Assembly (NCBI GenBank): GCA_964552565.1 | Contig: CAZKGL010000001.1 | Coordinates: forward strand, 435,061-499,060 | Reading direction: 5' to 3' | Length of the DNA stretch: 64,000 nucleotides | Origin: an uncultured Gammaproteobacteria bacterium | Lineage (GTDB): Bacteria > Patescibacteriota > Patescibacteriia > UBA9934 | In this document: positions 7,503 to 59,975 of the stretch, piece by piece | Position numbering within the stretch: the stretch's first letter is position 1 | How the letters are laid out: the number at the start of each line of letters is the position of its first letter | Position numbers and translations under genes: made by a program | Notes under the pieces: model-generated | The model's database searches: none | Seen by the model: only the letters and a program-made list of their open reading frames with translations | Told to the model about the DNA's origin: nothing

Positions 7503-7568
7503 ACCGCCTCCATGCTACCGCACTCCACGCCATCGTTCCACAGGACTCCTGCCCTTCTGCGCTGTGCT

Positions 7569-7577
7569 TGCTATACT
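7569..7577 (+). promoter_or_regulatory. Extended -10 promoter element TGCTATACT upstream of the first BNR surface protein gene
   Basis: TGNTATACT motif 24 nt upstream of the ATG; the same motif recurs upstream of several other genes in the window. Confidence 0.45.
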
Positions 7578-7600
7578 TTCCCCAAACTTATCTTTTGCGT

Positions 7601-10006
7601 ATGACCATGCGACTCTCTCGCGGCATCGGCGTTGCAGCCGGATTCCTCGCCGCATTCCTCATGGCGGCAAGTGCCGCAACCGCCCAGGCCGCGGGCGGAT
7701 GGACCGATGTCGACCTCGACATTTCGCTCGCTGAGCTCAACGGCATCGATGCCTACGGCTCAAGCCTGGCGATGATCGTCGGCAGCGGCGGCCTTGTGCT
7801 CGCGTCAACAGACAACGGCCTCACGTGGTCCGATGCGTCGCTCAGTTCCGCGGACATGGAGGGCCAGTCGTTCGACCTCTACGACGTGGACGTGATGAGC
7901 GCAACGACTGCGGTCGTCGGCGGCGAAGGCGGTATCTGGCGCACGACGGACGGCGGAGACACGTGGACCTGGGAAGAGATCGAGATCCTGGACACCGTCC
8001 GCGGCATCGACATGGGAAGCAGCACGATTGGTATCGCCGCCACGACGAACGGGACGATTTTCCGCACGACGGACGGCGGAGACACGTGGAGCAGCGTCGT
8101 CACGGGCACGAACGACTACTACGCAGCCTACTGCTACAGCGGCGGAAACCCGTGCTGGGCGGCCGGGGCGAACTCGAGCGGCACCGGCATCGTCTCCAAA
8201 TACAGCGGCAGCTCCTGGACAACAACGACGGTAACGGGCAGCGGCGTCTTGTACGGCATCGACTTTGTCTCGACGTCGACCGGATGGGTCGTCGGTGACG
8301 GAAGCTTTTTCAAAACGACCAACGGCGGCTCCAGCTGGTCGTCGGTAACGAGCGAATCGCTCGACGGGACGGAGGCGCTCTACGGTATCGACATGGCGAG
8401 CGCGTCGACCGGCTACGTTGTCACCAACGACGCGAAGATCGTGCAGACGAGCGACGGCAGCAGCTGGACGAACGGCACCGAGGTCGACAGCGTCTTCAGC
8501 TGGATGTACGCCGTAAACGCAAACCTCAAGATCGCGGTCGGCGGTTTCTCGAGCGCCTCGCGCTACGACGTCGCGGCTCCGGACGCGCCGACGAACTTCT
8601 TTGCTGAAGACGACACCACCACGGACCGCACGCCGTCGTTCACCTGGACCGCGGCCGTCGACGATGAAACCCCGATCGACTCCTACGAAGTCAAGCGCAA
8701 CAGCGGAAGCTGGACGAACATCGGCAACGTGACCAGTTACACCTGGCCGGCAACCATCGCGCCCGGCGCGCATACGTTCCTGCTCCGCGCCTACGACAGC
8801 GCCGGCAACGTCAGCGCGGAAGCGACCGAGACACTCACGGTCGACCTCACCGCCCCGACGGTCCCTGCGCCGTCGATCAACGCCTCGGAAGTCGGCGAGG
8901 AAATCACCTACAGCGTCGTTGCGACGGACGCGGAGACCGATGTCGCGAGCTGCACGCTCTACGTCAACGCGGCTAGCGTCGCGACGATGGTCGATATGAC
9001 GTCGGACTTCTACTACAGCACCCTGGCGGCAAGCGCCGGGACGTTCACCGCGTACGCCGTCTGCGTCGACAGCGCGGGCAATAGCACGACCGGCGCGTCG
9101 ACCGCGTACACCGTGACGGAGAGCAGTTCGAGTTCGTCGAGCGGCGACACCACTGCGCCCGTCGTCAGCGCAGTCTCCCCGTCGAGCGGCACATACGGCG
9201 TCATGGCGACCTGGACCGCCACCTACGCCGACGCGGTCGGCGTGACGGGCTGCACCTTCTACTTCGACGGTCGCAGCCGCGGCGCGATGACCATTGAGTC
9301 CGCGACCGCGGGCACGGCGACGACGACGTTCGCGCCGGACGACAGCGGGACGTCGAGCGCGTATGTCGTGTGCGAAGACGCCGCCGGCAATGAAGGGACC
9401 GGCGCAACGACGACCGTCGCGGTCGCCGCAAGCAGCTCGTCGAGCAGCGACACGAGCTCCGACACGTCGGACACCACGGATACCACGGATACAACCGACA
9501 CGACGTCCGACGAGGAAGACGAGGCGGTGAGCGAAGCGGAGCCGGGCAACCTCATTAAGCTCGCGTGTGCGGACGGGGCGGACATCAATGACCCGTGCAA
9601 GGCGGTCTACTACTACGACACGATCGACGAGAAACGCCACGCGTTCCCGAACGAAAAGGTCTACTTCACGTGGTACGACAGCTTCGACGATGTCATCATC
9701 GTCACCGACGAGTTCATGGCGTCCCTCACGCTCGGCGCCAACGTCACCTACCACCCGGGTACGCGGATGGTGAAGTTCATCACCGTCAACACCGTGTACG
9801 CGGTCGGTGAGGAGGGCGAGCTGCGTCCCATCGACAGCGAAGACACCGCCATCAGCATTTACGGCAGCACGTGGAACCAGCAGATCGACGACATCTCGGA
9901 CGCGTTCTACGGCAACTACGAGTTCGGCGAGGAGATCGATTCGACGAGCGACTTCGACCCGGACGCGGTCGAAGCGAGCGTCGACTCCATCGATGACATC
10001 CTCTAG
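7601..10006 (+). CDS. Large secreted/surface protein with BNR (Asp-box) beta-propeller repeats, Ig-like repeats, an acidic Ser/Thr/Asp linker and a conserved C-terminal domain
   Basis: Signal peptide (MTMRLSRGIGVAAGFLAAFLMAASAATAQA); repeated SxDxGxTW-type motifs (TDNGLTWSD, TTDGGDTWTWEE, TTDGGDTWSSV, TTNGGSSWSSV, TSDGSSWTNG); linker SSSSSDTSSDTSDTTDTTDTTDTTSDEEDE; C-terminal ~150 aa nearly identical to the paralog at 10110-12521. Confidence 0.75.
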   Translation: MTMRLSRGIGVAAGFLAAFLMAASAATAQAAGGWTDVDLDISLAELNGIDAYGSSLAMIVGSGGLVLASTDNGLTWSDASLSSADMEGQSFDLYDVDVMSATTAVVGGEGGIWRTTDGGDTWTWEEIEILDTVRGIDMGSSTIGIAATTNGTIFRTTDGGDTWSSVVTGTNDYYAAYCYSGGNPCWAAGANSSGTGIVSKYSGSSWTTTTVTGSGVLYGIDFVSTSTGWVVGDGSFFKTTNGGSSWSSVTSESLDGTEALYGIDMASASTGYVVTNDAKIVQTSDGSSWTNGTEVDSVFSWMYAVNANLKIAVGGFSSASRYDVAAPDAPTNFFAEDDTTTDRTPSFTWTAAVDDETPIDSYEVKRNSGSWTNIGNVTSYTWPATIAPGAHTFLLRAYDSAGNVSAEATETLTVDLTAPTVPAPSINASEVGEEITYSVVATDAETDVASCTLYVNAASVATMVDMTSDFYYSTLAASAGTFTAYAVCVDSAGNSTTGASTAYTVTESSSSSSSGDTTAPVVSAVSPSSGTYGVMATWTATYADAVGVTGCTFYFDGRSRGAMTIESATAGTATTTFAPDDSGTSSAYVVCEDAAGNEGTGATTTVAVAASSSSSSDTSSDTSDTTDTTDTTDTTSDEEDEAVSEAEPGNLIKLACADGADINDPCKAVYYYDTIDEKRHAFPNEKVYFTWYDSFDDVIIVTDEFMASLTLGANVTYHPGTRMVKFITVNTVYAVGEEGELRPIDSEDTAISIYGSTWNQQIDDISDAFYGNYEFGEEIDSTSDFDPDAVEASVDSIDDIL

Positions 10007-10081: not shown

Positions 10082-10109
10082 GGTGTCAGCTAATTTTCTG
10101 ACTTGCGCT

Positions 10110-12521
10110 ATGCGCCATTTGCTTCCCTTCCGCATCGCTTCGATAGGAGCGCTGCTTGTTGCGTCATGGTTCTTCAGTCACTCGGCCCTTGCGGGCTGGT
10201 ACACGCCCACGTCGGGCACGACCGCATCCCTCTACGACATCGACTACTACAGCGGCTACGTCGTTGCGGTGGGCTCGGGCGGGACAATCCGCTTTTCCGT
10301 CGATGCCGGACATTCGTGGTCAACGAGCACGAGCGGCACCACGTCGGCGCTGTACGCAGTCGATTCGGATAGCGGCTATGTCCTCGCCGTCGGCTATGGC
10401 GGCGTCATTCTGCGATCGACCAACTACGGCGCGACATGGACTGCCGTCACGAGCGGCACCACCGCGTCGTTGTACGACGTCATGATGAATCCCTACGGCC
10501 GGGCGTTCGCCGTCGGCTATGGCGGCGTACTCCTCACCTCAACGGACTACGGCGCGACATGGAGCGCACAGACTTCTGGTACGACGAACACGCTCCAGGC
10601 GGTTGACATTTGGGGCACCACCCGCGCCTACGCCGTCGGTTCGAGCGGCACCATCTTGTACTGGAACGGGACGACATGGAGCGCACAAACGTCCGGGACA
10701 ACGGAGACGCTGTACGGTGTCGCGATGTCCGGGACAACGGAAGCCTGGGTGGTGGGCTCCGGCGGCGTGGTACGGAAAACGACCGATGGCACGACGTGGA
10801 GCAGCGTCACGACGATTACCGGCCAAACGCTCTACAGTATCGAGATGTCGTCGAGCACGGCGGGCGGCATCATGGCAAAGACCGGCTTGTACGAAACCAC
10901 GAACGGAACGACATGGGCGGCAGCGTCGACCGGCAGCTGGTCGAGCGTATCCTGGGTGCTGAACGTCGATTACGGCACGATCCGTTTTGCCGTGGGCGCG
11001 AGCGGGAATATCCGTCGCTATGACCACTACGGCCCGGCTGTGGGTGCAGTAACACCGACGACTGCGCTCGAGGGCGTCCCGGTCACCTTCAGCGTTGACG
11101 CGACGGATGAAGCGGTCGTGACCCGATGCGATATCGAAATCCTTTCGGGTGACGGCAGCGGCGTCGTCCTGGACGGCGTGGACAGCGAAGATGACAGCTG
11201 GACGGCAAGCTATACGCTGAGTGCCGGCACCTACACGACCCAAGCGACGTGTTACGATCCGGCCTATAACTTTACGATGGGCGCAAGCAGCACCCTGACC
11301 GTCTCTGCGCCGGCGGACACGACCGAGCCCACTGTCGGGTCGCTCATCGTCGTCGAGGACGCCGTCGGGTCGCCGAGCGTATTCACGGTTTCGGCGTCGG
11401 ACGACGTCGGCATCGACTTCTGCACGCTCGTCATCTTGGAGGGCGACCTCGGCAGTGCGGGATTCCGCATGGCCATCCCGGCGTACGCCACCGCGGACAT
11501 GACCGGATCGGATGGTGCGTACACGGCAACATACACCTTTACTGCGGCAGGCGATTACACGGCATACGCGTACTGCCGCGATGCGGCGGGAAACCAGGCG
11601 AACACCGCGGATGCCATCTTTACGATTGACGCCGCGGCTGCGGCATCGGATACCGACGACACCGCGCCGACCATCGGGACGCCTTCCCCGACGAGCTTCA
11701 CGCTCGGCACCTCGCGCACGGTCACGGCGACTGTCAGCGACGACGTCGGCATCGAGAGCTGCGACCTCTTCATTGACGCTGAGAACGCCGGACTCATGAC
11801 GGTGAGCGGCGGGACAGCGAGCAAGTCCTACACCTTCTCGACAAACGACTGGGCCGACGGCGATACGGCGACGGTGACGGTGGAATGCGCAGACGAGGCC
11901 GGCAACTTCGACAGTACGTCGGTCGTCGTCACGCTCAGCGAGGCGGCGGTCGCGGATGAAGAAACGACAACGGAAGAAGAAACCGCGACGGATGAAGAAA
12001 CGGTAACCGTCGAAGAAGACCTGACAAACGAGGACGGCGACGCAGAGGCAGGCATGCTCATCAAACTCGCCTGCAGCGAAGGCGCGGACGTCAATGACCC
12101 GTGCAAAGCGGTCTACTTCTACAGCGAGTACGACGGCAAGCGCCACGCGTTCCCGAATGAGAAGGTCTACTTTACCTGGTACGCGAACTTCGACGAGGTC
12201 GCGGTCGTGAGCGACGAGTTCATGGCATCCCTCACCTTGGGACGCAACATCACGTACCGCCCCGGCACCCGCATGGTGAAGTTCATTACCGTCAACACGG
12301 TCTACGCGGTGACCCGAGGCGGCGTGCTGCGTCCCATCGACAGCGAGGAAACGGCCATCGCCCTCTACGGCGCGACGTGGAACCAGCAGATCGACGACAT
12401 CTCCGACGCGTTCTACGGCAACTATAGCTTCGGTGACGAAGTGACGAGCGGCGATGACTACGACGCGGAGACTGAGGAAGACGCCATCACCACGATCGAC
12501 GCCAACCTCCAGTGGCAGTAA
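10110..12521 (+). CDS. Paralogous large secreted/surface protein with BNR-like repeats, Ig-like repeats, an acidic linker and the same conserved C-terminal domain
   Basis: Signal peptide (MRHLLPFRIASIGALLVASWFFSHSALA); repeated TW-containing propeller-like motifs (SVDAGHSWSTSTSGTT, TNYGATWTAVTSGTT, TDYGATWSAQTSGTT, TDGTTWSSV); C-terminal domain GMLIKLACSEGADVNDPCKAVYFY...GTRMVKFITVNTVYAV...WNQQIDDISDAFYGNY shared with the first paralog. ATG at 10110; the listed ORF begins at an upstream GTG. Confidence 0.75.
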   Translation: MRHLLPFRIASIGALLVASWFFSHSALAGWYTPTSGTTASLYDIDYYSGYVVAVGSGGTIRFSVDAGHSWSTSTSGTTSALYAVDSDSGYVLAVGYGGVILRSTNYGATWTAVTSGTTASLYDVMMNPYGRAFAVGYGGVLLTSTDYGATWSAQTSGTTNTLQAVDIWGTTRAYAVGSSGTILYWNGTTWSAQTSGTTETLYGVAMSGTTEAWVVGSGGVVRKTTDGTTWSSVTTITGQTLYSIEMSSSTAGGIMAKTGLYETTNGTTWAAASTGSWSSVSWVLNVDYGTIRFAVGASGNIRRYDHYGPAVGAVTPTTALEGVPVTFSVDATDEAVVTRCDIEILSGDGSGVVLDGVDSEDDSWTASYTLSAGTYTTQATCYDPAYNFTMGASSTLTVSAPADTTEPTVGSLIVVEDAVGSPSVFTVSASDDVGIDFCTLVILEGDLGSAGFRMAIPAYATADMTGSDGAYTATYTFTAAGDYTAYAYCRDAAGNQANTADAIFTIDAAAAASDTDDTAPTIGTPSPTSFTLGTSRTVTATVSDDVGIESCDLFIDAENAGLMTVSGGTASKSYTFSTNDWADGDTATVTVECADEAGNFDSTSVVVTLSEAAVADEETTTEEETATDEETVTVEEDLTNEDGDAEAGMLIKLACSEGADVNDPCKAVYFYSEYDGKRHAFPNEKVYFTWYANFDEVAVVSDEFMASLTLGRNITYRPGTRMVKFITVNTVYAVTRGGVLRPIDSEETAIALYGATWNQQIDDISDAFYGNYSFGDEVTSGDDYDAETEEDAITTIDANLQWQ

Positions 12522-21131: not shown

Positions 21132-21180
21132 GGCGGGGTCCCCGCACCCCGCCGATCCGCCGGCCTGCGGGGAGGCCGGC
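21132..21180. repeat. GC-rich double-hairpin repeat (family 2, intergenic copy; module order A then B)
   Basis: GGCGGGGTCCCCGCACCCCGCC (A) then GCCGGCCTGCGGGGAGGCCGGC (B); both modules recur verbatim at 31187-31245 in swapped order. Confidence 0.6.
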
Positions 21181-29802: not shown

Positions 29803-31559
29803 ACGCGCAAATCAACAATCCGGAGTTGCAACTCACGGCGCCCGTTCCATATATTTACCTCCAGAGTATACGCGACATCGACGCGGTCGCCCATATGGAG
29901 GCGCGCTGCCCATTCGCCGAAGCCAAAGCCGACGAGCTTCCGCGCCTGTCCCGCGCCGTCAAGCGCCGACAACCGCAGGTGGTTCGCCCTGTTCCCCATC
30001 GTTTCGGCCGCAAGAACGCTGACGCCGCACGCGGCAAATATCGGCGCGCGGTTCCCTTCGCCAAACGGCGCGCACCGCGCGACGTCGCCGAGCAACTCCC
30101 ATGTCGCGTGCTCGAGCGGCAGCTCGACGTCGATCGGGAGCGTCTGCGCCGGTCGCGGCCCGCCAAAGAACGTGCGGGCAAACTCCCCGATGCGGGCTTG
30201 GAAGTCCCGGACCAACGACTCGTCCGCGATAGTGAGGCCGCACGCCTGCGGGTGCCCGCCTTTTCTGACGAACATATCGCCGCACGCGTTCATGGCTTCA
30301 ACCAAATGCAAGCCGCCGACGCTCCGCCCGCTGCCCACGTACTGGCCGCCGACGCGGGCGAATGCGAACGCCGGTACCCCGTAGTCGCCGACAAGACGCC
30401 CGGCGATGAGCCCGACGATGCCGGGAAGCCAATCGTCCTTCCACACCACGAGCACAGGAGCAGCCTCAGCAGCGTCGACCATCGCCCGCGCCTCGTCGTA
30501 TGCCTTTGCGAACATTCCCTGCCGTTCACGGTTCAGCGTCTCGAGCGTCGCCGCGGCGCGCTGTGCGGCAACCATGTCGTCTGCAGCAAGCGCGTCGAAC
30601 GCATGCGACGCCGACGTAAGACGTCCGGCGGCGTTCAACCGCGGGCCGATGCGGAAGCCGATCGTCTCCGTGTCGATGGTATCGAGGTCGACGCCTGCGG
30701 AGGCGAGGATGGCGAGCAGTCCCGGACGTTTTGTCTTGCGCAGCACGGTGAGCCCGAAATGTTCGAGGACGCGGTTCTCGCCGAGGAGCGGCATGACGTC
30801 CGTGACGGTCGCGACCGCAACAAGGTCGAGCATCCACTTTTCGTAGCCGACCGGGAATGCCGCGCCGCGTTTCCGCGCTTCGTCGAAGAGCGCACTCGCG
30901 AGTTTGAACGCGACGCCGGTACCGCACAACACTTTGTTCGGGTACTCCTCGCCCGGCGCGAGGGGATGCAACATGATCGCATGCGCGGGAAGGCGATCTC
31001 CCAACTGGTGGTGGTCGCAAATAACGACGTCAACGCCGAGCTCGTGGGCATGGTCGAGCTGGTCCGCGTTCGCAATACCGCAATCGACGGTAAGCAGCAG
31101 CTTCGTGCCCTCGGCCGCCAGCCGCTCCACCGTGTGCATGGCGACGCCGTAGCCGTCCTTCTCCCGGTCGGGCAGGAATACTCCCAGCCGGCCTGCGGGG
31201 AGGCCGGCGATGTACTGTTGATAGGCGGGGTCCCCGCACCCCGCCATTTTTTTAGCAATGTCTTGGAGCGCGCCGTACAGGAGCGCGCTCCCCGACACGC
31301 CGTCGGCGTCATAATCGCCGTGGATCATGATACGCTCGCCGTTTGCAAGCGCGGCGAAGACGCGGTCGACCGCGTGCCGCATCTTCGTGAACAGCCACGG
31401 CGAATGCGTCCCGCGTTCCCAGTCGGGCGATAAGAACGCCGCGCCGTCGTCCGGGCGGACACCGCGGTTCGCAAGCAGTTGCCGAACAATATCGTCCTCC
31501 ACGCGGGGGGCGATGACCCATTGCCGTTCCATGAAGCTGTCGTTACGTCGCGCCTCCAC
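29799..31559 (-). CDS. recJ: Single-stranded-DNA-specific exonuclease RecJ (DHH family)
   Basis: DHH motifs (IHGDYDADGVSG, DHH..., GGGH); start is either GTG at 31559 or ATG at 31532; contains an in-frame family-2 repeat at 31187-31245. Confidence 0.85.
   Translation of the reverse strand: MEARRNDSFMERQWVIAPRVEDDIVRQLLANRGVRPDDGAAFLSPDWERGTHSPWLFTKMRHAVDRVFAALANGERIMIHGDYDADGVSGSALLYGALQDIAKKMAGCGDPAYQQYIAGLPAGRLGVFLPDREKDGYGVAMHTVERLAAEGTKLLLTVDCGIANADQLDHAHELGVDVVICDHHQLGDRLPAHAIMLHPLAPGEEYPNKVLCGTGVAFKLASALFDEARKRGAAFPVGYEKWMLDLVAVATVTDVMPLLGENRVLEHFGLTVLRKTKRPGLLAILASAGVDLDTIDTETIGFRIGPRLNAAGRLTSASHAFDALAADDMVAAQRAAATLETLNRERQGMFAKAYDEARAMVDAAEAAPVLVVWKDDWLPGIVGLIAGRLVGDYGVPAFAFARVGGQYVGSGRSVGGLHLVEAMNACGDMFVRKGGHPQACGLTIADESLVRDFQARIGEFARTFFGGPRPAQTLPIDVELPLEHATWELLGDVARCAPFGEGNRAPIFAACGVSVLAAETMGNRANHLRLSALDGAGQARKLVGFGFGEWAARLHMGDRVDVAYTLEVNIWNGRRELQLRIVDLRV
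31187..31245. repeat. GC-rich double-hairpin repeat (family 2, in-frame copy within recJ; module order B then A)
   Basis: GCCGGCCTGCGGGGAGGCCGGC ... GGCGGGGTCCCCGCACCCCGCC; translated within RecJ as MAGCGDPAYQQYIAGLPAGR. Confidence 0.6.
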
Positions 31560-36407: not shown

Positions 36408-36450
36408 CGGCAGGAGCTCCCACTCGGGACTCCTGCCGTTGCTCGTTGTT
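36408..36450. terminator. Terminator-like hairpin between convergent 36051-36389 (+) and mnmA (-)
   Basis: CGGCAGGAG...CTCCTGCCG 9-bp stem followed by TTGCTCGTTGTT. Confidence 0.5.
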
Positions 36451-37564
36451 ATGCAGCAATGACGCCGCTACCGATGAGTTCGTCGCCGTCGTAGAACGCG
36501 ATGAACTGCCCCGGCGCGACGGCGCGCTGCGGCGTGTCGAAGGTGACGACCACCCCCGAACCCCCTCCATGAATGGAGGGGGACTTCGCTCCCTCTTGGC
36601 TACCCCCATTCATGGGGGCTAGGGGGTAGACGACACACGGGGCGAGCGGCTGGCGGTAGCGGATGCGCGCCGCGATTTTTTTGTTTTGCGCGTCCGTGAG
36701 GTTGCCCGGAACGGTCTCCGTCAGGTCCGTCGCAACGAGTGCGGAACGGTACAGCGCCGGATCCTCGTCCCCAACCGCGACCACGACCTCGTTCGTCTCC
36801 GGACGGCGTTCGACGACATAGAGCGGCGTCCCGCCGCCGACACCAAGCCCCTCGCGCTGGCCGATGGTGTAGAACGCGAACCCCTTGTGCGTGCCGAGGA
36901 CCTTTCCGTCCGTCGTCACAATGTTTCCCTCGTGCGGCGCAATGCGTTCGGCAAGGAAATCGACCATGTCGACTTTGCCGACAAAGCAGATACCTTGGCT
37001 GTCCTTTTTCTCCGCGACCGGAAGCGCAAACTTCCGTGCACGCTCGCGCACCTCGGGTTTCGTGTACTCGCCAATCGGGAAGATGACGCGGCGCAACTGC
37101 TCCTGCGTCAACTGACAAAGGAAGTAGCTTTGGTCCTTGTTCGTGTCGACGCCGGCATACAACCGCCCGTCCTTCACGCGGGCGTAGTGCCCGGTTGCCA
37201 CGAAGGCGCACCCCAGCGCGTCCGCTTCGCGGAGGAACAGGTCGAACTTCATGTACTTGTTGCACCGCACGTCCGGATTCGGTGTGCGTCCCGCCCTGTA
37301 CTCGGCGATCATGTACTCGTATACCTTGCGGCGATACTCCTCCTCAAAGTCGAACGTATGGAATGGGATACCGAGCTGCGCTGCGACCCGCATCGCGTCG
37401 CGCCGCTCCGCGCGCCAGCCGCAACTTTCGTCCTCAGTCCCGTCGCTCCAGTTCTTCATGAATCCGCCGACGACCTCATAACCCTGTTCCAACAGCAATG
37501 CCGCGCTGACGCTTGAGTCAACGCCGCCAGAGAGGCCCACAAGGACGCGAGGCTTCGGCTGCAT
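36449..37564 (-). CDS. mnmA: tRNA-specific 2-thiouridylase MnmA
   Basis: PP-loop SGGVDSSV, catalytic Cys region and C-terminal barrel (AVAPGQFIAFYDGDELIGSGVI); contains an in-frame family-1 repeat at 36552-36628. Confidence 0.9.
   Translation of the reverse strand: MQPKPRVLVGLSGGVDSSVSAALLLEQGYEVVGGFMKNWSDGTEDESCGWRAERRDAMRVAAQLGIPFHTFDFEEEYRRKVYEYMIAEYRAGRTPNPDVRCNKYMKFDLFLREADALGCAFVATGHYARVKDGRLYAGVDTNKDQSYFLCQLTQEQLRRVIFPIGEYTKPEVRERARKFALPVAEKKDSQGICFVGKVDMVDFLAERIAPHEGNIVTTDGKVLGTHKGFAFYTIGQREGLGVGGGTPLYVVERRPETNEVVVAVGDEDPALYRSALVATDLTETVPGNLTDAQNKKIAARIRYRQPLAPCVVYPLAPMNGGSQEGAKSPSIHGGGSGVVVTFDTPQRAVAPGQFIAFYDGDELIGSGVIAA
36552..36628. repeat. GC-rich double-hairpin repeat (family 1, in-frame copy within mnmA)
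   Basis: ~90% identical to 40752-40828; hairpins CCCCCTCCA-TGAA-TGGAGGGGG and CTACCCCC..GGGGGTAG; encodes PLAPMNGGSQEGAKSPSIHGGGSGVV. Confidence 0.7.
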
Positions 37565-37576
37565 AAGCGCAGCATG

Positions 37577-38266
37577 CTACCCGACTGTACGGAAGATGTC
37601 GAGCTCTGGCTCTGCGGCAACGGTGATGCGCTCCTTCGTGACCGGTTGGTCAAACTCGAGCGACCGGGCGAACAGCCCGATGGCGCCGCTGTGACCCTCC
37701 CCCTGCCCGAGGGGGAGTTGGAGGGGGTGGGAGGCGCCGTATTTTTTGTCGCCGACGATCGGGGTGCCGAGCGATGCCATGGCCACGCGAATCTGGTGCG
37801 GCCGTCCTGTTGCGGGTTGCACCTCGACAAGCGATCGCCCGTCCTTGGACGCGAGGACGCGGTACGAGAGTTGCGCCCGCTGCGAATCCGGGACCTCGTG
37901 GTCGTACGCGGTCACGAAATTCTTCGCCTCGTCCTTCACCAGCCACTGGATCACATCGCCTGCGGTTTTTTCCGGCCTGCCTTCCACGACCGCCCAATAC
38001 GTCTTGTCGATGCTGTGCGAACGGAACTGTTCAGACAGGCGGCTCGCGCCCTTCGATGTCTTTGCGAACAGCACGACGCCCCCGACCGGCCGGTCGAGGC
38101 GGTGGAGCAGCCCCAAAAACACGTTGCCGGGCTTCGCGTCGCGCGACTTCAGCAATGCTTTTACTTCGTCCATCACATTGACGTCCCCTGTCTCGTCGCC
38201 CTGCGTCAGCATGCCGTGCGGTTTGCGGACGGCAATCAGGTGGTTATCTTCGTAGAGGATGTCCAT
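37577..38266 (-). CDS. RluA-family pseudouridine synthase
   Basis: Catalytic motif HRLDRPVGGVVLFAK plus the C-terminal GDKKYG...LFARSLEF region typical of RluA/RluD-type enzymes. Confidence 0.85.
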   Translation of the reverse strand: MDILYEDNHLIAVRKPHGMLTQGDETGDVNVMDEVKALLKSRDAKPGNVFLGLLHRLDRPVGGVVLFAKTSKGASRLSEQFRSHSIDKTYWAVVEGRPEKTAGDVIQWLVKDEAKNFVTAYDHEVPDSQRAQLSYRVLASKDGRSLVEVQPATGRPHQIRVAMASLGTPIVGDKKYGASHPLQLPLGQGEGHSGAIGLFARSLEFDQPVTKERITVAAEPELDIFRTVG

Positions 38267-39828: not shown

Positions 39829-40638
39829 CTACGCGGTCAAGCGATCCGCAAACACGGTGAGGAGCAGCAGGCCGAACGCAATGCGATACAGCGCAAACAC
39901 ACCGAACCCCGTCTTGCGGATGATAAAAAACAACAAGCGGATGGCAATGACGCCAAAGATGAGCGCGGAGGCGAAACCGATACCGAGCATGCCCCATGCG
40001 AGGTCTGTCGCCCCGGCATCGACAACATCCCACGCCGTCTTAGCGCCTGCGCCAACGATGGCGGGTATTGCGAGGAGGAAGGAAAAGCGCGCCGCCTGCC
40101 CGCGGTCCATGCCGGAGAACAAGCCGATGGTCATGGTCGCGCCCGACCGCGAGGTGCCCGGGATGAGCGCGAAAGCTTGCGCGACGCCAACGGCAACCGC
40201 CTGGCCCCACGTGACATCGTGGACGCGACGCGCGTCGATGGTGCGCTTCTTTGGGACGTAGTCGGCAATGCCAAGCAGGATGCCCCACGCAATGAGCATT
40301 GCCGCGACGACCGGCAGCGTGCGCACTGCGTCCATCATGCTGCCGAGCGCGGCGCCGACGATGACCGCCGGGATGGTCGCCACGAGCAGCTTCACTGCCA
40401 ACGACCGGTCGGCCCGGACCCTTTCGCGGATGCCCTTCACGAGGGCGCCGATTTCGCGGCGCATGGCGATGACGATGGCGAGCAGCGTCGCAAGGTGGAC
40501 CGCCACATCGAACACCAACCCTTGCGCCTCCCAACCGAAGAGCGCCGGAATCGCAAGAAGGTGGCCGGAGCTCGAAATGGGGAGGAACTCGGTGAGGCCC
40601 TGGACCGCGCCAAGCACTGCCGCCTCAAGGAACGTCAT
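39829..40638 (-). CDS. uppP: Undecaprenyl-diphosphate phosphatase
   Basis: UppP/BacA signature (GAVQGLTEFLPISSSGHL...PGTSRSGATM) with 8 TM helices; its start overlaps the stop of the upstream ATPase gene (ATGA). Confidence 0.85.
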   Translation of the reverse strand: MTFLEAAVLGAVQGLTEFLPISSSGHLLAIPALFGWEAQGLVFDVAVHLATLLAIVIAMRREIGALVKGIRERVRADRSLAVKLLVATIPAVIVGAALGSMMDAVRTLPVVAAMLIAWGILLGIADYVPKKRTIDARRVHDVTWGQAVAVGVAQAFALIPGTSRSGATMTIGLFSGMDRGQAARFSFLLAIPAIVGAGAKTAWDVVDAGATDLAWGMLGIGFASALIFGVIAIRLLFFIIRKTGFGVFALYRIAFGLLLLTVFADRLTA

Positions 40639-42530
40639 AGCTCTTCGTCAAACGTTATGCGCTCGCCGGGCATGACCTGCTGCGGCGCGGCGGCTGGCGC
40701 GTCCCCGCCGTTCCCGCGGTTGCGGCGTCGGCGTCGGCGTTTGCGGCCAACCACCCCCGAGCCCCCTCCATCAATGGAGGGGGACCCGGTTCCCTCTTGG
40801 CTACCCCCATTCATGGGGGCGAGGGGGTTGAGCATGTCGCCTGCACGTGGTGCGGCGTCGTCGTGCGCCGGGACGGGTTTCGGCGGTGACGCCTCGGGTT
40901 TCTTTACGGGGGAAAGTGCGGACAACGACATGCTTTCGCCCGCCTCCCGCGCAACAGGCTCACCGTCATGCACCTTCGGCGCCGGCCCGGACTCCTTGCC
41001 CTTCTGGCGTACCTCCTTCTTTTCCTTCCCCTTCTTCCGCTCCTCCATCACGATGGGGTGGCACTCTTCACAGTAAATCGGGCGCGACCGGTCAAGCTCC
41101 ACCGGCAACAAAAACTTCTTCCCGCAGCGGGTGCAGTCATACTCGTGGCTGTACCGCTTCTTTTTGTCCTCCTTCTTTTGCGCCGCGACCGCGGCGAGCG
41201 CTCCGGCCACGTCGACGTTCGGGTCAAACCCCGCCCACGTCGCGACGTGCTCTTCAATCTGCGCCTTGTTGCCGGCGTACCGTTCGCGCGACTGCGCGAT
41301 GACCCGCTCCGCGCTGCCCGTGCGCTGGGCGATGGGCGGCAGCGTCTGCGCCGAAAACGGATGGCTCGTCACGCCGTCAATCATGAGTTTGACGTAGATG
41401 GCGTGCTTCGGGAGGTTGATGATGTCTTCCGGCGTGAACCGCGGCATGAGCTCGTTCTCGAGGAAGACGGCGTCCGGCGAGCCGACGCGGAAGAACACCA
41501 TGCTGCCGACGTTGCCGAACACTGCGTCCCGCACCGCAGTCGACGTCCCCTGCTCGAGCTGGGCGATGTACTGGTGCGCCATGATGAGGTTGAGCCGGTA
41601 CTTGCGCGCTTCAGAGAGCACGCTTGCGAACGATTCGACGGCAAAGTTCTGGAATTCGTCGACGTACAGGTAGAAATCGTTCCGCTCGGACTCCGGGACA
41701 TTCACGCGCTCCATGGCCGACATCTGGATCTTCGTGATGAGCATGCCGCCGAGGAGGCGCATCGCATCTTCACCGACGCGCCCCTTGGAGAGGTTGATGA
41801 TGAAAATCTTCTGGCTGTCCATGATGTCGCGGATGTTGATGGACGACTTCGCCTGCGCGACGATGTTGCGAATGACCGACGACGACAAGAATTGGCCGAT
41901 CTTGTTTTGGATCGGCGCAACCGCCTCGGTCGCGAATTTCGCATCATATTGGGCGAACTCCTGCAGCCAGAACTGTTTGACGATCGGGTCGGTGACGTTC
42001 GTGATGATCTGCGCGCGGTAGTCCTTATCCGACAGCATGCGATTGATGCCGAGCAGCGTGGATCCCGACGTGTCGAGGAGCGCAAGGATGGTGTTATTCA
42101 AAATGTACTCCATGCGCGCCGACCACACGTTCTCCCAGATCTTTTTGAACACCGACATGAGGCTCGACGCGACGAGGTGCTTCATGGTCGGATCCACCGA
42201 CTCGAGGATGTTGAAGCCGATCGGGTAGTCGAGGTCCGACGGATTGAAATACACGACGTCGTTGATGCGCCAGGACGGGATGTAATCGATCAGCTTTTCC
42301 GCGGTGTCGCCGTGCGGATCGACATAACAACACCCGTGGCCGGCGTAGATGTCGGCCAGGATCATGTTCTCGAGCAGCGTCGTCTTGCCCATGCCGGTCT
42401 TTCCGATGACGTACATGTGCCGGCGGCGGTCGTCGGTCTTGACGCCGAACTTGCGCATCGCATTCCGGAAGTTGGTCTTGCCGAAATAGATGACGTCGCT
42501 CTCGTGGTCATGTTCGTAACGCATTGGCAT
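40635..42530 (-). CDS. FtsK/HerA/TraG-superfamily P-loop ATPase resembling type IV coupling proteins (TraD/VirD4-like), soluble, with a C-terminal zinc ribbon and basic tail
   Basis: Walker A VIGKTGMGKTT, YVDPHGD (like the DPKG motif of TraD/VirD4), Walker B FYLYVDEFQNF, Zn ribbon YDCTRCGKKF...IYCEECH, Arg-rich tail; contains an in-frame family-1 repeat. Confidence 0.65.
   Translation of the reverse strand: MPMRYEHDHESDVIYFGKTNFRNAMRKFGVKTDDRRRHMYVIGKTGMGKTTLLENMILADIYAGHGCCYVDPHGDTAEKLIDYIPSWRINDVVYFNPSDLDYPIGFNILESVDPTMKHLVASSLMSVFKKIWENVWSARMEYILNNTILALLDTSGSTLLGINRMLSDKDYRAQIITNVTDPIVKQFWLQEFAQYDAKFATEAVAPIQNKIGQFLSSSVIRNIVAQAKSSINIRDIMDSQKIFIINLSKGRVGEDAMRLLGGMLITKIQMSAMERVNVPESERNDFYLYVDEFQNFAVESFASVLSEARKYRLNLIMAHQYIAQLEQGTSTAVRDAVFGNVGSMVFFRVGSPDAVFLENELMPRFTPEDIINLPKHAIYVKLMIDGVTSHPFSAQTLPPIAQRTGSAERVIAQSRERYAGNKAQIEEHVATWAGFDPNVDVAGALAAVAAQKKEDKKKRYSHEYDCTRCGKKFLLPVELDRSRPIYCEECHPIVMEERKKGKEKKEVRQKGKESGPAPKVHDGEPVAREAGESMSLSALSPVKKPEASPPKPVPAHDDAAPRAGDMLNPLAPMNGGSQEGTGSPSIDGGGSGVVGRKRRRRRRNRGNGGDAPAAAPQQVMPGERITFDEEL
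40752..40828. repeat. GC-rich double-hairpin repeat (family 1, in-frame copy within the T4CP-like ATPase gene)
   Basis: Near-identical to 36552-36628; encodes PLAPMNGGSQEGTGSPSIDGGGSGVV in the C-terminal tail. Confidence 0.7.
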
Positions 42531-53936: not shown

Positions 53937-54090
53937 GCATCTACAAAAAATGTCCGGCCGGACAAAAAGTGTAGACGGGGGGCGTTACACTTTTTTCACG
54001 ATCGTCGATTTTGTGTAACGCTCCTGGTAACCAAAACCTCACGGCCGTAAAAAATTGATATCCATCACAAAACCGCCCTTGCGAGCGGTT
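53937..54090. repeat. 154-bp direct repeat, copy 1 (identical to 55542-55695)
   Basis: Perfect 154/154 identity; contains the palindrome TGTCCGGCCGGACA and a terminator-like hairpin AAAACCGCCC-TTGCGA-GCGGTT at its high-coordinate end. Confidence 0.9.
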
Positions 54091-54098
54091 CTGCGGGG

Positions 54099-55541: not shown

Positions 55542-55695
55542 GCATCTACAAAAAATGTCCGGCCGGACAAAAAGTGTAGACGGGGGGCGTTACACTTTTT
55601 TCACGATCGTCGATTTTGTGTAACGCTCCTGGTAACCAAAACCTCACGGCCGTAAAAAATTGATATCCATCACAAAACCGCCCTTGCGAGCGGTT
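55542..55695. repeat. 154-bp direct repeat, copy 2 (identical to 53937-54090); immediately downstream of secA
   Basis: Perfect identity to copy 1; its terminal hairpin also serves as the secA terminator (followed by TTTTG). Confidence 0.9.
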
Positions 55696-55704
55696 TTGTG
55701 CGCG

Positions 55705-58538: not shown

Positions 58539-58578
58539 GCCCCCGAACCACCCCTTGCCCCTCCTTGGGAAGGAGGGG
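58539..58578. repeat. Partial copy of the family-1 GC-rich hairpin element (intergenic, murC/secA)
   Basis: GCCCCCGAACCACCCCTTGCCCCTCCTTGGGAAGGAGGGG: shares the 5' CCCCCGAACC and a first hairpin of the CCCC(C)TCC...GGAGGGG type with 36552 and 40752. Confidence 0.4.
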
Positions 58579-58583
58579 AAATG

Positions 58584-59975
58584 CTATTGCACCAGACGCC
58601 GCGCCACCTCGTCGATATCGCCGGCGCCCATGACGATGACGACGTCGCCGTCACGCAGATGCGCACGGAGCTTCGCCTCGGTTGCGTCGAGGTCCTGGGC
58701 GTACTCCATCGGACGCACCGCTCCGCTCCCCGCAGGAATCCGCTGCTGGATGGCGTTCAGGAGATCCATACTCGAGATCGCATCCGCCTCGTCCGTCCGG
58801 CCTTGCACACCGTAAATTTCCGTGAGGATAAGGACATCAGCGTCGTCGAACGCCGTGACGAACTCGTCGAAGAGTTCTTTCGTGCGGTTGTGCTGATGCG
58901 GCTGGAAGGCGAGCACGATGCGCCGACCAGGGAAAAACTCTTTCGCCGCGGCGAGCGTGCCGGTAATGGCAGTCGGATGGTGGCCGTAATCGGAGATGAC
59001 ATCGGCGCCGTTGCACGTGCCGACGCGCTCAAAGCGGCGCCAGATGCCGGTGAAGTTCATCAGCGTCTGGAGGGCGATGTGCGCACCAATCCCGTATTCC
59101 GACGCGATCGCGAGCGCGGCGAGCGCGTTCATCATGTTGAATGCGCCGGGAATCTGCAGCATGAGGTCGCCGATGATCGCGCGCCGGCGCAAGAATCCGC
59201 GCGACCGGTACAGGCGCAACAACTGATAGCCGCCTTCGAAACGGCGCGGCTCGGCGTCCATGGCGTCACCGAAGAACTTCAGCGTCGCCGTGCCGTCGCC
59301 GCGATAGATGCGCCGCGCGCGGTCGGCGGCATTGTGGAAAAATGTCTTTGTCGTCTGCATGCCGAGCTGGCGGAACATCGCTTCCATGTCCGCAAGGTCC
59401 TTGTACACGTCCGTGTGGTCCAGCTCGACGTTCGTGACGAGCGTCGTCTCCGGGTGCAGCGCGAGCACTTTCCGCTTGTACTCGTCGCCCTCGACGATAA
59501 GGATGTCGCTTGCGCCGATGCGCAGGTTCCCCAGCTCCCAGCCGGGAACGAGGCTGCCGACGAAGACCGTCGGGTCCATGCCGGCGTCTTCAAAAATCTT
59601 TCCGGTCATCGCCGTCGTCGTGGATTTCCCGTTCGTCCCCGTCACGCAAATCGTACGCATCGTCTTTGCAAGCTCCCCAAGGAATCCGAAGTGCCCGAGC
59701 TGGCGGATGCCGCGCCGCGCGGCCTCCGCGCGCTCGACGTTGTCCTCCCCCGCCGCCTCGGTGTACACGACAAGATCGCACGATGCGGGGATGTTCGCCG
59801 CGTCGTGGCCGATGGTGATCGTCGCGCCCCGCGCGGCGAGGTCGTCGGTCATCGCGGACCGGACCGTGTCGGAGCCGCTCACCGCAACGCCGCGCGAAAG
59901 CAAAAATTTCGCGACCGCGCTCACGCCGATCCCTCCCGCGCCGATGCAGTGCGCATGCTTCACCTCGTCCTGCAT
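58584..59975 (-). CDS. murC: UDP-N-acetylmuramate--L-alanine ligase
   Basis: Mur ligase motifs (GIGGIGVSAVA, TGTNGKSTT) and a C-terminal domain; 463 aa. Confidence 0.9.
   Translation of the reverse strand: MQDEVKHAHCIGAGGIGVSAVAKFLLSRGVAVSGSDTVRSAMTDDLAARGATITIGHDAANIPASCDLVVYTEAAGEDNVERAEAARRGIRQLGHFGFLGELAKTMRTICVTGTNGKSTTTAMTGKIFEDAGMDPTVFVGSLVPGWELGNLRIGASDILIVEGDEYKRKVLALHPETTLVTNVELDHTDVYKDLADMEAMFRQLGMQTTKTFFHNAADRARRIYRGDGTATLKFFGDAMDAEPRRFEGGYQLLRLYRSRGFLRRRAIIGDLMLQIPGAFNMMNALAALAIASEYGIGAHIALQTLMNFTGIWRRFERVGTCNGADVISDYGHHPTAITGTLAAAKEFFPGRRIVLAFQPHQHNRTKELFDEFVTAFDDADVLILTEIYGVQGRTDEADAISSMDLLNAIQQRIPAGSGAVRPMEYAQDLDATEAKLRAHLRDGDVVIVMGAGDIDEVARRLVQ

What the first reader, a model, noticed from the sequence alone, without database searches (positions are those of the whole stretch)
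36552..36628. In-frame GC-rich double-hairpin repeat inside mnmA (family 1, copy 1): an RPE-like intragenic element
A ~77-bp segment (CACCCCCGAACCCCCTCCATGAATGGAGGGGGACTTCGCTCCCTCTTGGCTACCCCCATTCATGGGGGCTAGGGGGTAG) is ~90% identical at nucleotide level to 40752-40828 inside an unrelated gene. It folds into two stem-loops (CCCCCTCCA-TGAA-TGGAGGGGG and CTACCCCC...GGGGGTAG). In both host genes it sits in the same frame and orientation without a stop, adding nearly the same peptide (PLAPMNGGSQEGAKSPSIHGGGSGVV here). Compared with my memory of E. coli MnmA, the C-terminal barrel segment between the conserved PC and FD(E/T)P positions is ~18 aa longer here, so it looks like an insertion, not ancestral sequence. 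This is the behaviour described for Rickettsia palindromic elements. I am not aware of it being reported for this type of genome.
Basis: partly seen in the sequence, partly recalled or inferred. Interest (0 to 1): 0.85.

Follow-up and report, generated by a model that had tools for sequence, protein, structure and literature searches.

The report
In-frame hairpin-doublet repeat in CPR genes
A 78-base GC-rich double-hairpin repeat sits in frame inside two unrelated genes of a tiny Candidatus Uhrbacteria genome, adding a floppy loop to each protein. It behaves like the selfish "palindromic elements" of Rickettsia and matches the two ends of a small endonuclease (DUF559) gene cassette seen in other bacteria.

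Summary
An 82-nt segment, 74/82 identical, occurs at 36549-36630 in mnmA and at 40750-40831 in the tail of a TraD/VirD4-like ATPase. Both copies have the same orientation and frame and encode 26 codons. The closest orthologues of both genes lack it, and solved MnmA structures show a 19-residue gap there. AlphaFold places it as a disordered loop between two strands.

What is conserved is nucleotide structure, not peptide:
- All 8 differences fall outside 42 stem positions.
- Stems covary across relatives.
- An orthologous copy reads hairpin B in another frame.
- Intergenic copies exist in other CPR genomes.

The element is an inverted doublet of a "hairpin plus G-tail" module, so it is built like a REPIN and behaves like an RPE. 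It is a member of neither family.

New lead: its two ends are 85-94% identical to the ends of a DUF559 (Vsr/EDxHD-type endonuclease) ORF cassette in a gammaproteobacterial MAG, read in the same frame. Eight of eight DUF559 loci inspected carry such hairpins next to the gene.

I read the window copies as endonuclease-less miniature derivatives. The mobiliser is inferred only: the window has no DUF559 gene and the rest of the genome could not be searched.

The parts
36549..36630 (-). Copy 1 of the double-hairpin element, inside mnmA. The 26 in-frame codons are 36548-36625 (MnmA residues 314-339).
   Evidence: Direct repeat D5; codon-by-codon comparison; nhmmer E 4.5e-21.
36603..36618 (-). Hairpin A of copy 1 (coding sense CCCCCA-TGAA-TGGGGG), read as APMNGG.
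36561..36582 (-). Hairpin B of copy 1 (coding sense CCCCCTCCA-TTCA-TGGAGGGGG), read as SPSIHGGG. Its loop is the reverse complement of the loop of hairpin A.
36552..36557 (-). G-tail of copy 1 (coding sense GGGGGT, + strand ACCCCC); it pairs with the C-tail at 36622-36627 to form the outer closing stem.
   Evidence: 21 of 21 Watson-Crick pairs in the three-stem structure.
36622..36627 (-). C-tail of copy 1 (coding sense ACCCCC), the 5' arm of the outer stem.
40750..40831 (-). Copy 2 of the element, forming almost the whole linker between the PRAGDML and RKRRRRRR motifs in the C-terminal tail of the TraD/VirD4-like ATPase. Hairpin B is 40762-40783, hairpin A is 40804-40819, and the outer arms are 40753-40758 and 40823-40828.
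36449..37564 (-). Host gene 1: mnmA (tRNA 2-thiouridine synthase), 371 aa.
   Evidence: Pfam tRNA_Me_trans, E 6e-76; 100% identical to an NCBI Candidatus Uhrbacteria protein on an 838,942-bp contig.
40635..42530 (-). Host gene 2: T4SS coupling-protein-like ATPase with a zinc ribbon, 631-aa ORF (the database protein has 629 aa).
   Evidence: Pfam TrwB_AAD_bind, T4SS-DNA_transf, TraG-D_C.
58540..58578 (-). Intergenic single module related to hairpin B plus tail (CCCCTCCTT-CCC-AAGGAGGGG-CAA-GGGGTGGTTCGGGGG), 5 nt downstream of the stop codon of the ORF 58584-59975 (function not tested here).
   Evidence: weak nhmmer hit, E 0.34.
37695..37727 (-). In-frame single module of the A type (CCCCCTCC-AA-CTCCCCCTC-GGG-CAGGGGGAG) in the pseudouridine synthase gene, read as PLQLPLGQGEG. 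It is shared with the closest relative L017 and absent from L018 and L013.

Best explanation
The element is a non-autonomous, selfish palindromic repeat that sits in frame inside genes.

Architecture. It is an inverted doublet of one module, laid out as [C-tail][hairpin A] - 20-nt spacer - [hairpin B][G-tail].

How copies arise and persist. Copies are made at the DNA level. They survive only where they do no harm, either just past stop codons or inside genes at surface loops. Inside genes they must lie in the single sense frame without stop codons. There the element is translated into a Gly/Ser/Pro-rich disordered loop that the protein tolerates.

What is preserved. Selection, or the copying mechanism itself, maintains the stems and not the peptide.

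Probable origin. The doublet is most likely a miniature derivative of a longer cassette, having lost the endonuclease gene. In that cassette the same two ends bracket a DUF559 (Vsr-like, EDxHD-type) endonuclease ORF that is read through both hairpins in this same frame. The endonuclease would supply the DNA break in trans, as a RAYT does for REPINs or a homing endonuclease does for its own ORF.

Shown here:
- the repeat, the insertion and the frame;
- the stem constraint;
- the disordered loop (from a predicted model);
- the existence of intergenic relatives;
- the match between the element's ends and the ends of the DUF559 cassette, and the association of such hairpins with DUF559 genes.

Inferred:
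- mobility;
- translation of the insert;
- any role of DUF559 in this genome.
For: Insertion:
- Orthologues of both hosts have empty sites.
- Solved MnmA structures show a 19-aa gap at this place.
- In the AlphaFold model, residues 315-337 are coil with pLDDT below 50 at 320-331, between strands 308-314 and 338-347.

Constraint on the nucleotide rather than the peptide:
- All 8 differences between the two copies fall outside the 42 paired positions (hypergeometric P = 0.002).
- Across 14 related modules, 91% of cells are paired. Fourteen cells show changes on both sides of a pair, against 6.0 +/- 1.9 in shuffles; 0 of 500 shuffles reached the observed value.
- The orthologous copy in L012 reads hairpin B in a different frame (SPPFMEGS instead of SPSIHGGG).
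- The peptide has no relatives in protein searches.

Dispersal:
- An intergenic doublet lies between a stop codon and a terminator in a Hainich groundwater contig (L016).
- An intergenic single module occurs in another Uhrbacteria genome (L008).
- The two copies in this genome are 90% identical. By eye, the copy at the same mnmA site in L012 matches them at roughly 70% (not computed).
- Carriers of the hairpin at the mnmA loop fall in three separate clades, interleaved with non-carriers.

Survivorship: only one of the three sense frames is open in both copies.

DUF559 link:
- In L006 the layout is A-end, then the DUF559 ORF, then B-end. These ends are 85-94% identical to the CPR doublet ends. 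The ORF reads SPINGG at one end and TPSIYGGG at the other, the same frame as in the window.
- In L011 a DUF559 domain (E 3e-23) is bracketed by modules and sits in frame inside a 1350-aa methylase ORF.
- Six of six DUF559 genes sampled from plasmid records carry such hairpins, on both sides in four and on one side or within one end of the ORF in the others.
- In two 40-kb controls the hairpins concentrate at the gene: 4 of 6 in Sphingomonas and 6 of 11 in Pseudanabaena. The third control, Photobacterium, is weaker (see evidence against).
- The Vsr/DUF559 fold includes a proven homing endonuclease family (PMC3424549, PMC3384342, PMC9403480).
Against: - Only two full copies are visible, because just 64 kb of an 839-kb genome could be read.
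- Exact-pattern scans of the public collections found few relatives: 11 loci among the genome contigs, 1 among the metagenome contigs and 1 among the viral contigs.
- No DUF559 gene and no transposase was found in the window or in any CPR locus fetched. The mobiliser is therefore unproven for this lineage.
- There is no consistent target-site duplication. GACGAC flanks copy 1 only, and removing the element at that repeat would delete the beta-hairpin turn.
- The covariation set was partly collected with patterns that require a hairpin, so it leans towards pairing.
- L006 and L011 are contigs of metagenome bins, and their taxonomic labels may be wrong.
- In Photobacterium the hairpins form long arrays, only one of which adjoins the DUF559 gene.
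Confidence: 0.7

Rival explanations
1. A one-off ectopic copy. A short tract was copied once between mnmA and the ATPase gene by gene conversion or template switching, with no dedicated mobility system. The hairpins merely made the event more likely.
For: Only two full copies are seen in 64 kb. No target-site duplication and no transposase were found. The mnmA site is occupied in several lineages while the ATPase site is unique to this genome, which fits copying from an old copy to a new site.
Against: The same doublet occurs in intergenic DNA of other genomes (L016) and as the ends of a DUF559 cassette (L006). Other module families in the same window also occur both inside genes and between them. 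Another Uhrbacteria mnmA carries two copies of a 38-nt module in two different loops.
Confidence: 0.12
2. A functional nucleic-acid structure kept by host selection. Possible roles include an mRNA-stabilising or terminator-like hairpin, a translational pause site or a protein-binding site. On this view the copies are maintained because they do something for the cell.
For: The stems are strictly conserved while the peptide is not. Intergenic relatives lie directly after stop codons and next to terminators, as REP elements do.
Against: The closest relatives do without it in both genes. Its distribution on the MnmA tree is patchy. It matches no Rfam family. No short word is over-represented in the window, as an uptake signal would be. 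Stem conservation is also what a hairpin-dependent copying mechanism would produce.
Confidence: 0.1
3. The element is removed or bypassed and never translated, through RNA-level excision or ribosomal bypassing as with the byp elements of yeast mitochondria. The proteins would then be unaltered.
For: The hairpins are very stable. Insertions in CPR rRNA genes are known (my own recollection, not checked here).
Against: Every intragenic copy seen is a multiple of 3 and has no stop codon, including L012, where indels compensate each other to restore the frame. Excision or bypass would not require this. No stop codon or frameshift lies within the element; matching take-off and landing codons were not looked for.
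Confidence: 0.03
4. An ordinary conserved protein segment, meaning a linker or loop with a peptide-level function that the two proteins share by descent or domain shuffling.
For: The two peptides are 88% identical. A few MnmA orthologues have similar peptides at the same place.
Against: Relatives use different reading frames. Intergenic copies exist. Protein searches found no relatives of the peptide. The region is predicted to be disordered. Most orthologues lack it.
Confidence: 0.03

Closest known systems
Rickettsia palindromic elements (RPE; Ogata et al. 2000, as summarised in PMC10969869)
   Same: A dispersed palindromic repeat inserted in frame into unrelated housekeeping genes. It adds a peptide at a place compatible with the protein fold. 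It has no coding capacity of its own and no clear target-site duplication.
   Different: There is no sequence relationship. This element is 78 nt, whereas RPEs are about 100-150 nt, and it is extremely GC-rich. It is built as an inverted doublet of a hairpin-plus-tail module. The host is a CPR bacterium rather than one of the Rickettsiales. A candidate partner gene (DUF559) exists here; the review cited here names no partner gene for RPEs.
REPINs and REP sequences mobilised by RAYT transposases (PMC3116915, PMC3337134)
   Same: [quoted passage not shown] Singlets also occur. The putative partner gene is itself flanked by the repeats.
   Different: REPINs are described as extragenic, whereas these copies lie inside ORFs and are read through. 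The GTAG head lies on the wrong side of the hairpin. The gene found next to relatives is a DUF559 endonuclease, not a Y1 (HUH) transposase. Copy number appears low.
GC-rich double-hairpin elements and GC clusters of fungal and sponge mitochondria (PMC2800124 and the work it cites)
   Same: GC-rich single, double or triple hairpin repeats that occur between genes and in variable parts of protein and rRNA genes. They are not removed from transcripts and are suspected to be mobile.
   Different: Those elements live in organelle genomes and are unrelated in sequence. No endonuclease association of this kind has been described for them.
[quoted passage not shown]
   Same: Short and non-autonomous, with imperfect terminal inverted repeats. 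It looks like an internally deleted version of a longer element that carries a gene. In-frame fusions with host ORFs are known for MITEs.
   Different: There is no reproducible target-site duplication, and the longer relative carries an endonuclease of the Vsr/EDxHD type, not a transposase. In at least one case (L011) the longer relative also sits in frame inside a host ORF.
Free-standing and intron- or intein-borne homing endonuclease genes of the EDxHD family (I-Bth0305I; PMC3239194, PMC3384342)
   Same: The DUF559/Vsr fold is shared. Both are invasive genes found within coding regions, and both are distributed patchily across phyla.
   Different: No intron or intein surrounds the cassette. 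It is bounded by hairpin modules and stays in the host protein. Endonuclease-less miniature forms have not been described for homing endonuclease genes, as far as I could find.

Membership tests
Rickettsia palindromic elements (RPE) | Repeat found in several copies, inserted in frame in unrelated protein-coding genes | tested here: met
   Two copies lie in mnmA and a TraD-like ATPase gene, in the same frame and with no stop codon. The copy number in the whole genome is unknown.
Rickettsia palindromic elements (RPE) | Palindromic sequence able to form a stable stem-loop | tested here: met
   RNA folding z -4.1 and -3.0; DNA folding z -3.4 and -2.9.
Rickettsia palindromic elements (RPE) | Insertion at a place compatible with the fold of the host protein | tested here: met
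   In the AlphaFold model the insert is a low-confidence coil between two strands of the C-terminal barrel. Solved MnmA structures show a 19-aa gap there. In host 2 the insert lies in a variable linker.
Rickettsia palindromic elements (RPE) | Sequence homology to one of the ten RPE families; length of about 100-150 bp; Rickettsiales host | tested here: not met
   The element is 78 nt and GC-rich, in Candidatus Uhrbacteria. It was not aligned directly to RPE consensus sequences. Rfam gave no match.
REPIN / REP-RAYT | Two REP units in inverted orientation with a spacer, folding into a long hairpin | tested here: met
   The inverted arms are 14-35 nt long and 74-86% complementary. The minimum-energy fold of copy 1 (as RNA) and of L016 (as DNA) is one long hairpin.
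REPIN / REP-RAYT | Extragenic location | tested here: not met
   Both window copies are intragenic. Relatives L016 and L008 are extragenic.
REPIN / REP-RAYT | A RAYT (Y1 transposase) gene in the genome, flanked by the repeats | not testable with these tools
   Only 64 kb of the 839-kb genome is available. None of the 32 ORFs scanned against Pfam is a transposase. Relatives are flanked by DUF559 genes instead.
REPIN / REP-RAYT | Conserved GT[AG]G head 5' of the palindrome | tested here: not met
   GTAG, GTGG or GTTG does occur, but 3' of the hairpin at the end of the G-tail, which is the mirror image of the REP arrangement.
MITE | Terminal inverted repeats | tested here: met
   ACCCCCGAnCCCCC / GGGGGCnAGGGGGT, 14-23 nt at 78-86% complementarity.
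MITE | Target-site duplication | tested here: inconclusive
   A 6-bp direct repeat, GACGAC, flanks copy 1 only. Copy 2 has none. Removing copy 1 at that repeat would delete the beta-turn present in all orthologues.
MITE | A longer autonomous relative that shares the ends | tested here: inconclusive
   L006 carries both ends, 85-94% identical, around a DUF559 ORF. That contig comes from another phylum, and no such cassette was found in the CPR DNA held.
Translational bypass (byp) elements / introns / inteins | The insert is incompatible with read-through (stop codon, frameshift, or splicing or bypass signals) | tested here: not met
   The frame is open and the length is a multiple of 3 in every intragenic copy. 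No intein-type boundary residues are visible by eye at the ends of the insert in the translations; no intein motif search was run.

The most novel reading that the evidence does not exclude
DUF559 (Vsr-like, EDxHD-type) endonucleases may be the partner genes of a class of repeats found across phyla. These repeats are C-run/G-run hairpin doublets. The relationship would resemble that between RAYT transposases and REPINs, with one difference: both ends of the cassette are open in the endonuclease's own reading frame. That allows the cassette and its miniature derivatives to live inside host ORFs. The CPR copies in mnmA, rluA, recJ and the ATPase gene would then be such miniatures, and this process would be a steady source of new surface loops in very small genomes.
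Probability: 0.35. Interest if true: 0.8.

Novelty: new variant of a known kind. Interest (0 to 1): 0.62.

Why it matters
In-frame selfish palindromes have so far been best documented in Rickettsia and in organelles. Here one 64-kb stretch of an 839-kb CPR genome carries four in-frame hairpin insertions in conserved genes (mnmA, a pseudouridine synthase, recJ and a TraD-like ATPase). A single loop of MnmA ranges from 16 to 52 residues across Uhrbacteria. Three consequences follow.

- **Protein evolution.** Hairpin repeats would be a regular source of length variation and new loops in the most reduced bacterial genomes.
- **Annotation and alignment.** Gly/Pro/Ser-rich "inserts" in CPR proteins may be repeat DNA and should be masked in phylogenies and in domain calls.
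- **A candidate mechanism.** The match to the ends of DUF559 cassettes gives a concrete, testable mobiliser for a repeat class that also occurs in cyanobacteria and proteobacteria. It would also suggest a function for a large family of uncharacterised endonuclease genes.

Tried and rejected
- **Peptide search for further in-frame copies.** A 52-aa tandem query found nothing. A 40-aa query against 1.8 billion representatives returned only unrelated repeat proteins. The peptide therefore does not define a protein family, but the result is weak evidence about copy number.
- **Whole-collection DNA scans.** The hairpin-B pattern found 11 loci in the genome collection, and the window's own genome is not in that collection. 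The doublet pattern found 1 metagenome locus. Viral contigs gave 1 and 0 matches. Phage and plasmid BLAST searches found nothing.
- **Extending the window.** Look-ups with edge genes failed three times because the exact gene products are not on record.
- **Rfam.** No family matched at the gathering threshold or at E up to 10.
- **DNA uptake signal.** No short word is over-represented in the window.
- **Target-site duplication.** Rejected as a consistent feature.
- **Integron attC-like ends.** Only copy 2 resembles the core sites, because its inverted repeat happens to extend further; I dismissed this by eye.
- **REP-type GTAG head.** It lies on the wrong side of the hairpin.
- **Transposase in the window.** None among the 32 ORFs scanned against Pfam, and tblastn found no DUF559.
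- **Covariance model of the single module.** Not built. A direct hairpin scan had already listed every C-run/G-run hairpin in the window, 10 in all.
- **Literature.** No paper was found on such elements in CPR/Patescibacteria, nor on DUF559 genes flanked by repeats.
Full report
**1. Observation**

The window contains an 82-nt direct repeat at 36549-36630 and 40750-40831. The two copies match at 74 of 82 positions without gaps. Each of the two hairpin motifs occurs only at these two places, and none of 100 shuffles produced a match.

Both copies lie on the coding (-) strand of their hosts, in the same frame. They encode 26 codons each:
- PLAPMNGGSQEGAKSPSIHGGGSGVV
- PLAPMNGGSQEGTGSPSIDGGGSGVV

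Host 1 is mnmA (36449-37564). Host 2 is a T4SS coupling-protein-like ATPase with a zinc ribbon (40635-42530). The organism is a Candidatus Uhrbacteria bacterium (CPR/Patescibacteria); MnmA is 100% identical to an NCBI protein on an 838,942-bp contig. The ATPase with its insert is also on record from an independent Logan assembly, so an assembly artefact is unlikely.

**2. It is an insertion**

In an alignment of 32 MnmA orthologues, the closest ones (77-81% identical) have a short beta-turn where the window protein has the 26 residues. At the DNA level, the relatives L017 and L018 read C-T-L-E-R-A-A-K-G-V-T-V-R-F and C-T-I-D-A-H-G-D-V-T-F at that place.

Across 115 orthologues this loop is 16-21 residues long in about half and reaches 52 in the longest. 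In the window protein it is 39. Solved MnmA structures (2hma, 9hlv) align with a 19-residue gap exactly there. An AlphaFold model (mean pLDDT 83) has strand 308-314, then coil 315-337 with pLDDT below 50 at 320-331, then strand 338-347.

In the ATPase, the element makes up almost the whole linker between the conserved PRAGDML and KRKRRRR motifs. None of 119 orthologues shows the same peptide.

**3. Anatomy**

In coding sense the element reads:

ACCCCC-TAG-[CCCCCA TGAA TGGGGG]-20 nt-[CCCCCTCCA TTCA TGGAGGGGG]-TTC-GGGGGT

- The two loops are reverse complements of each other.
- The 5' half is about 80% identical, by eye, to the reverse complement of the 3' half (not computed).
- The outer C-tail pairs with the outer G-tail.

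The element can therefore fold in two ways: as a three-stem structure, or as one long hairpin. In short, it is an inverted doublet of a "hairpin plus G-tail" module.

**4. What is conserved is the nucleotide structure**

- All eight differences between the two copies lie in loops and spacers. None lies in the 42 paired positions (P = 0.002).
- In 14 related modules from the window and from other loci, 91% of cells pair. Two pairs switch between U-A and C-G with few or no unpaired cells. The number of cells changed on both sides exceeds every one of 500 shuffles. One caveat: some of these sequences were retrieved with hairpin-shaped patterns.
- The mnmA orthologue in L012 carries a homologous doublet at the same site. 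Small indels there put hairpin B in another frame (SPPFMEGS instead of SPSIHGGG) before the frame is restored.
- Protein searches with the peptide found no relatives.

**5. It is dispersed**

A scan of metagenome contigs with a doublet pattern found one further copy, L016, from Hainich groundwater. It lies in intergenic DNA between a stop codon and an intrinsic terminator. A single module lies in intergenic DNA in another Uhrbacteria genome (L008), and similar hairpins occur in a Kaiserbacteria genome (L005).

On an MnmA tree, sequences carrying hairpin A at this loop fall in three clades. Each clade is interleaved with sequences that lack it or that carry a different module. The two copies within this genome are 90% identical, more alike than copies at the same site in different genomes. 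By eye, the mnmA copy in L012 matches the window copies at roughly 70% (not computed). This pattern points to recent copying within the genome.

**6. The phenomenon is wider than this one family**

In the same window:
- The pseudouridine synthase gene carries an in-frame A-type module at 37695-37727. It is shared with L017 and absent from L018 and L013.
- recJ carries two 22-nt hairpins at 31187-31245, which form an insertion of about 20 residues relative to solved RecJ. The same two hairpins, 100% identical but in the opposite order, lie just past the gatA stop codon at 21132-21180.
- An intergenic B-type module lies at 58540-58578.

In another Uhrbacteria genome, mnmA holds two copies of a 38-nt module in two different loops (L020).

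**7. A candidate origin and mobiliser**

*L006.* Among the loci retrieved only by the hairpin-B pattern, L006 (a bin labelled Gammaproteobacteria) has this layout:

[CCCCCTCTACCTCCCCCATAAATGGGGGAGAG] - a 330-nt DUF559-like ORF - [CCCCCTCCATTTATGGAGGGGGCTAGGGGGTGG]

Its ends are 85-94% identical to the ends of the CPR doublets. Its ORF reads SPINGG at one end and TPSIYGGG at the other, the same frame as APMNGG and SPSIHGGG in the window.

*L011.* In L011 (a bin labelled Competibacteraceae), a DUF559 domain (PF04480, E 3e-23) is bracketed by modules. It sits in frame inside a 1350-aa Eco57I/MmeI-like methylase ORF, and that ORF also reads through at least five further modules.

*Plasmid records.* A tblastn search of plasmid records with the L006 ORF found 40 records. 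All six DUF559 genes I inspected carry C-run/G-run hairpins next to the gene or within the ends of its ORF. They lie on both sides in four of the six and on one side or within one end of the ORF in the other two. Several are doublets with complementary loops and CTAGGGGG-type tails. The six hosts were Picosynechococcus, Pseudanabaena, Synechocystis, Sinorhizobium, Photobacterium and Sphingomonas.

*Controls.* In three 40-kb stretches around such genes:

| Organism | Hairpins in 40 kb | Hairpins at the DUF559 gene |
|---|---|---|
| Sphingomonas | 6 | 4 bracket the gene core |
| Pseudanabaena | 11 | 6 lie within about 200 bp of the gene |
| Photobacterium | two long arrays | one array starts 70 bp from the gene |

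Several of the cyanobacterial hairpins lie inside annotated CDSs.

*Literature.* The Vsr/DUF559 fold includes the EDxHD homing endonucleases (PMC3424549, PMC3384342, PMC9403480). I found no paper describing repeats associated with DUF559 genes.

**8. Limits**

The window has no DUF559 gene and no transposase among the 32 ORFs scanned. The rest of the genome could not be reached, and neither could further CPR genomes. Copy number and the identity of the mobiliser in this lineage are therefore inferred, not shown. There is no consistent target-site duplication.

**9. Verdict**

The element belongs to neither the RPE nor the REPIN families. It is a new family of in-frame palindromic repeat in a phylum where I found none reported. 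It is built like a REPIN, and its ends match those of a DUF559 endonuclease cassette.

Noticed in passing
window 31187-31245 (in recJ, - strand) and 21132-21180 (intergenic, abutting the gatA stop codon): A second hairpin family. Two 22-nt hairpins, GGCGGGGTCCCCGCACCCCGCC and GCCGGCCTGCGGGGAGGCCGGC, are 100% identical at both sites but in swapped order, and their loops are reverse complements of each other. In recJ they are read in frame as part of an insertion of about 20 residues relative to solved RecJ (8y30).
   Followed up: partly
window 37695-37727 (pseudouridine synthase gene 37577-38266, - strand): An in-frame hairpin module read as PLQLPLGQGEG. It is present in the closest relative (L017) and absent from L018 and L013. 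L020 has a different hairpin at the same site (HPRPLLRQEGSS).
   Followed up: partly
window 53937-54093 and 55542-55698: A 157-nt intergenic repeat, 99% identical between its two copies, containing terminator-like hairpins. Each copy lies just downstream of a minus-strand gene.
   Followed up: no
window 7568-10006 and 10083-12521: Two tandem paralogous ORFs of 812 aa each, with BNR/YCF48-like and Ig-like (Big_13) domains. Stretches of them are 79-85% identical at the nucleotide level.
   Followed up: no
L020 10001-11152 (mnmA of another Uhrbacteria genome): Two in-frame copies of a 38-nt module, CTCTCCCCCTCAyCGAGGGGGAGTCGGAGGGGGAG, in two different loops of the same gene, read as PLPLIEGESEGE and LPLTEGESEGE.
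   Followed up: partly
MnmA orthologues P0001-P0120, the loop between RYRQP and PQRA: The loop length ranges from 16 to 52 residues. Several recurrent insert types appear, for example HPR[EK]GGDP, LLPYPEF.P.DR and DLTPSLSV. Other loops of MnmA also hold hairpin-like peptides such as SPPYEGGVGGG and SPSFKEGGKG.
   Followed up: partly
L011 829-4881 (- strand; bin labelled Competibacteraceae): A 1350-aa Eco57I/MmeI-like methylase ORF reads through a complete DUF559 domain and at least five hairpin modules, all in frame.
   Followed up: partly
L006 about 1810-2270: The DUF559 cassette lies inside a larger inverted repeat (CCCGAGGAATGCGC ... GCGCATTCTCGGG), as if it had inserted at the tip of an existing palindrome.
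   Followed up: no
Module spacers in L006, L008, L023, L024 and window 36619-36623: The spacer between the hairpin and the G-tail is often CTAGG. That matches CTWGG, the sequence in which Vsr nicks at T/G mismatches. This may be coincidence, or it may hint at the cleavage site of the DUF559 endonuclease.
   Followed up: no
L030 20425-21996 and 36627-39979 (Photobacterium sp. GJ3 pGJ3-1): Long arrays of CCTCCCCCTT-GAA-AAGGGGGAGG hairpins, spaced about 55-150 bp apart. One array begins 70 bp downstream of a DUF559 homologue.
   Followed up: no
C-terminal tails of the TraD-like ATPase orthologues P0121-P0240: The tails vary widely in length (proteins of 586-901 aa). Some contain repeated hairpin-like peptides, for example P0200 with GP[AG]RRGGPMSPP twice and P0155 with LPLPKGEPEG.
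   Followed up: no
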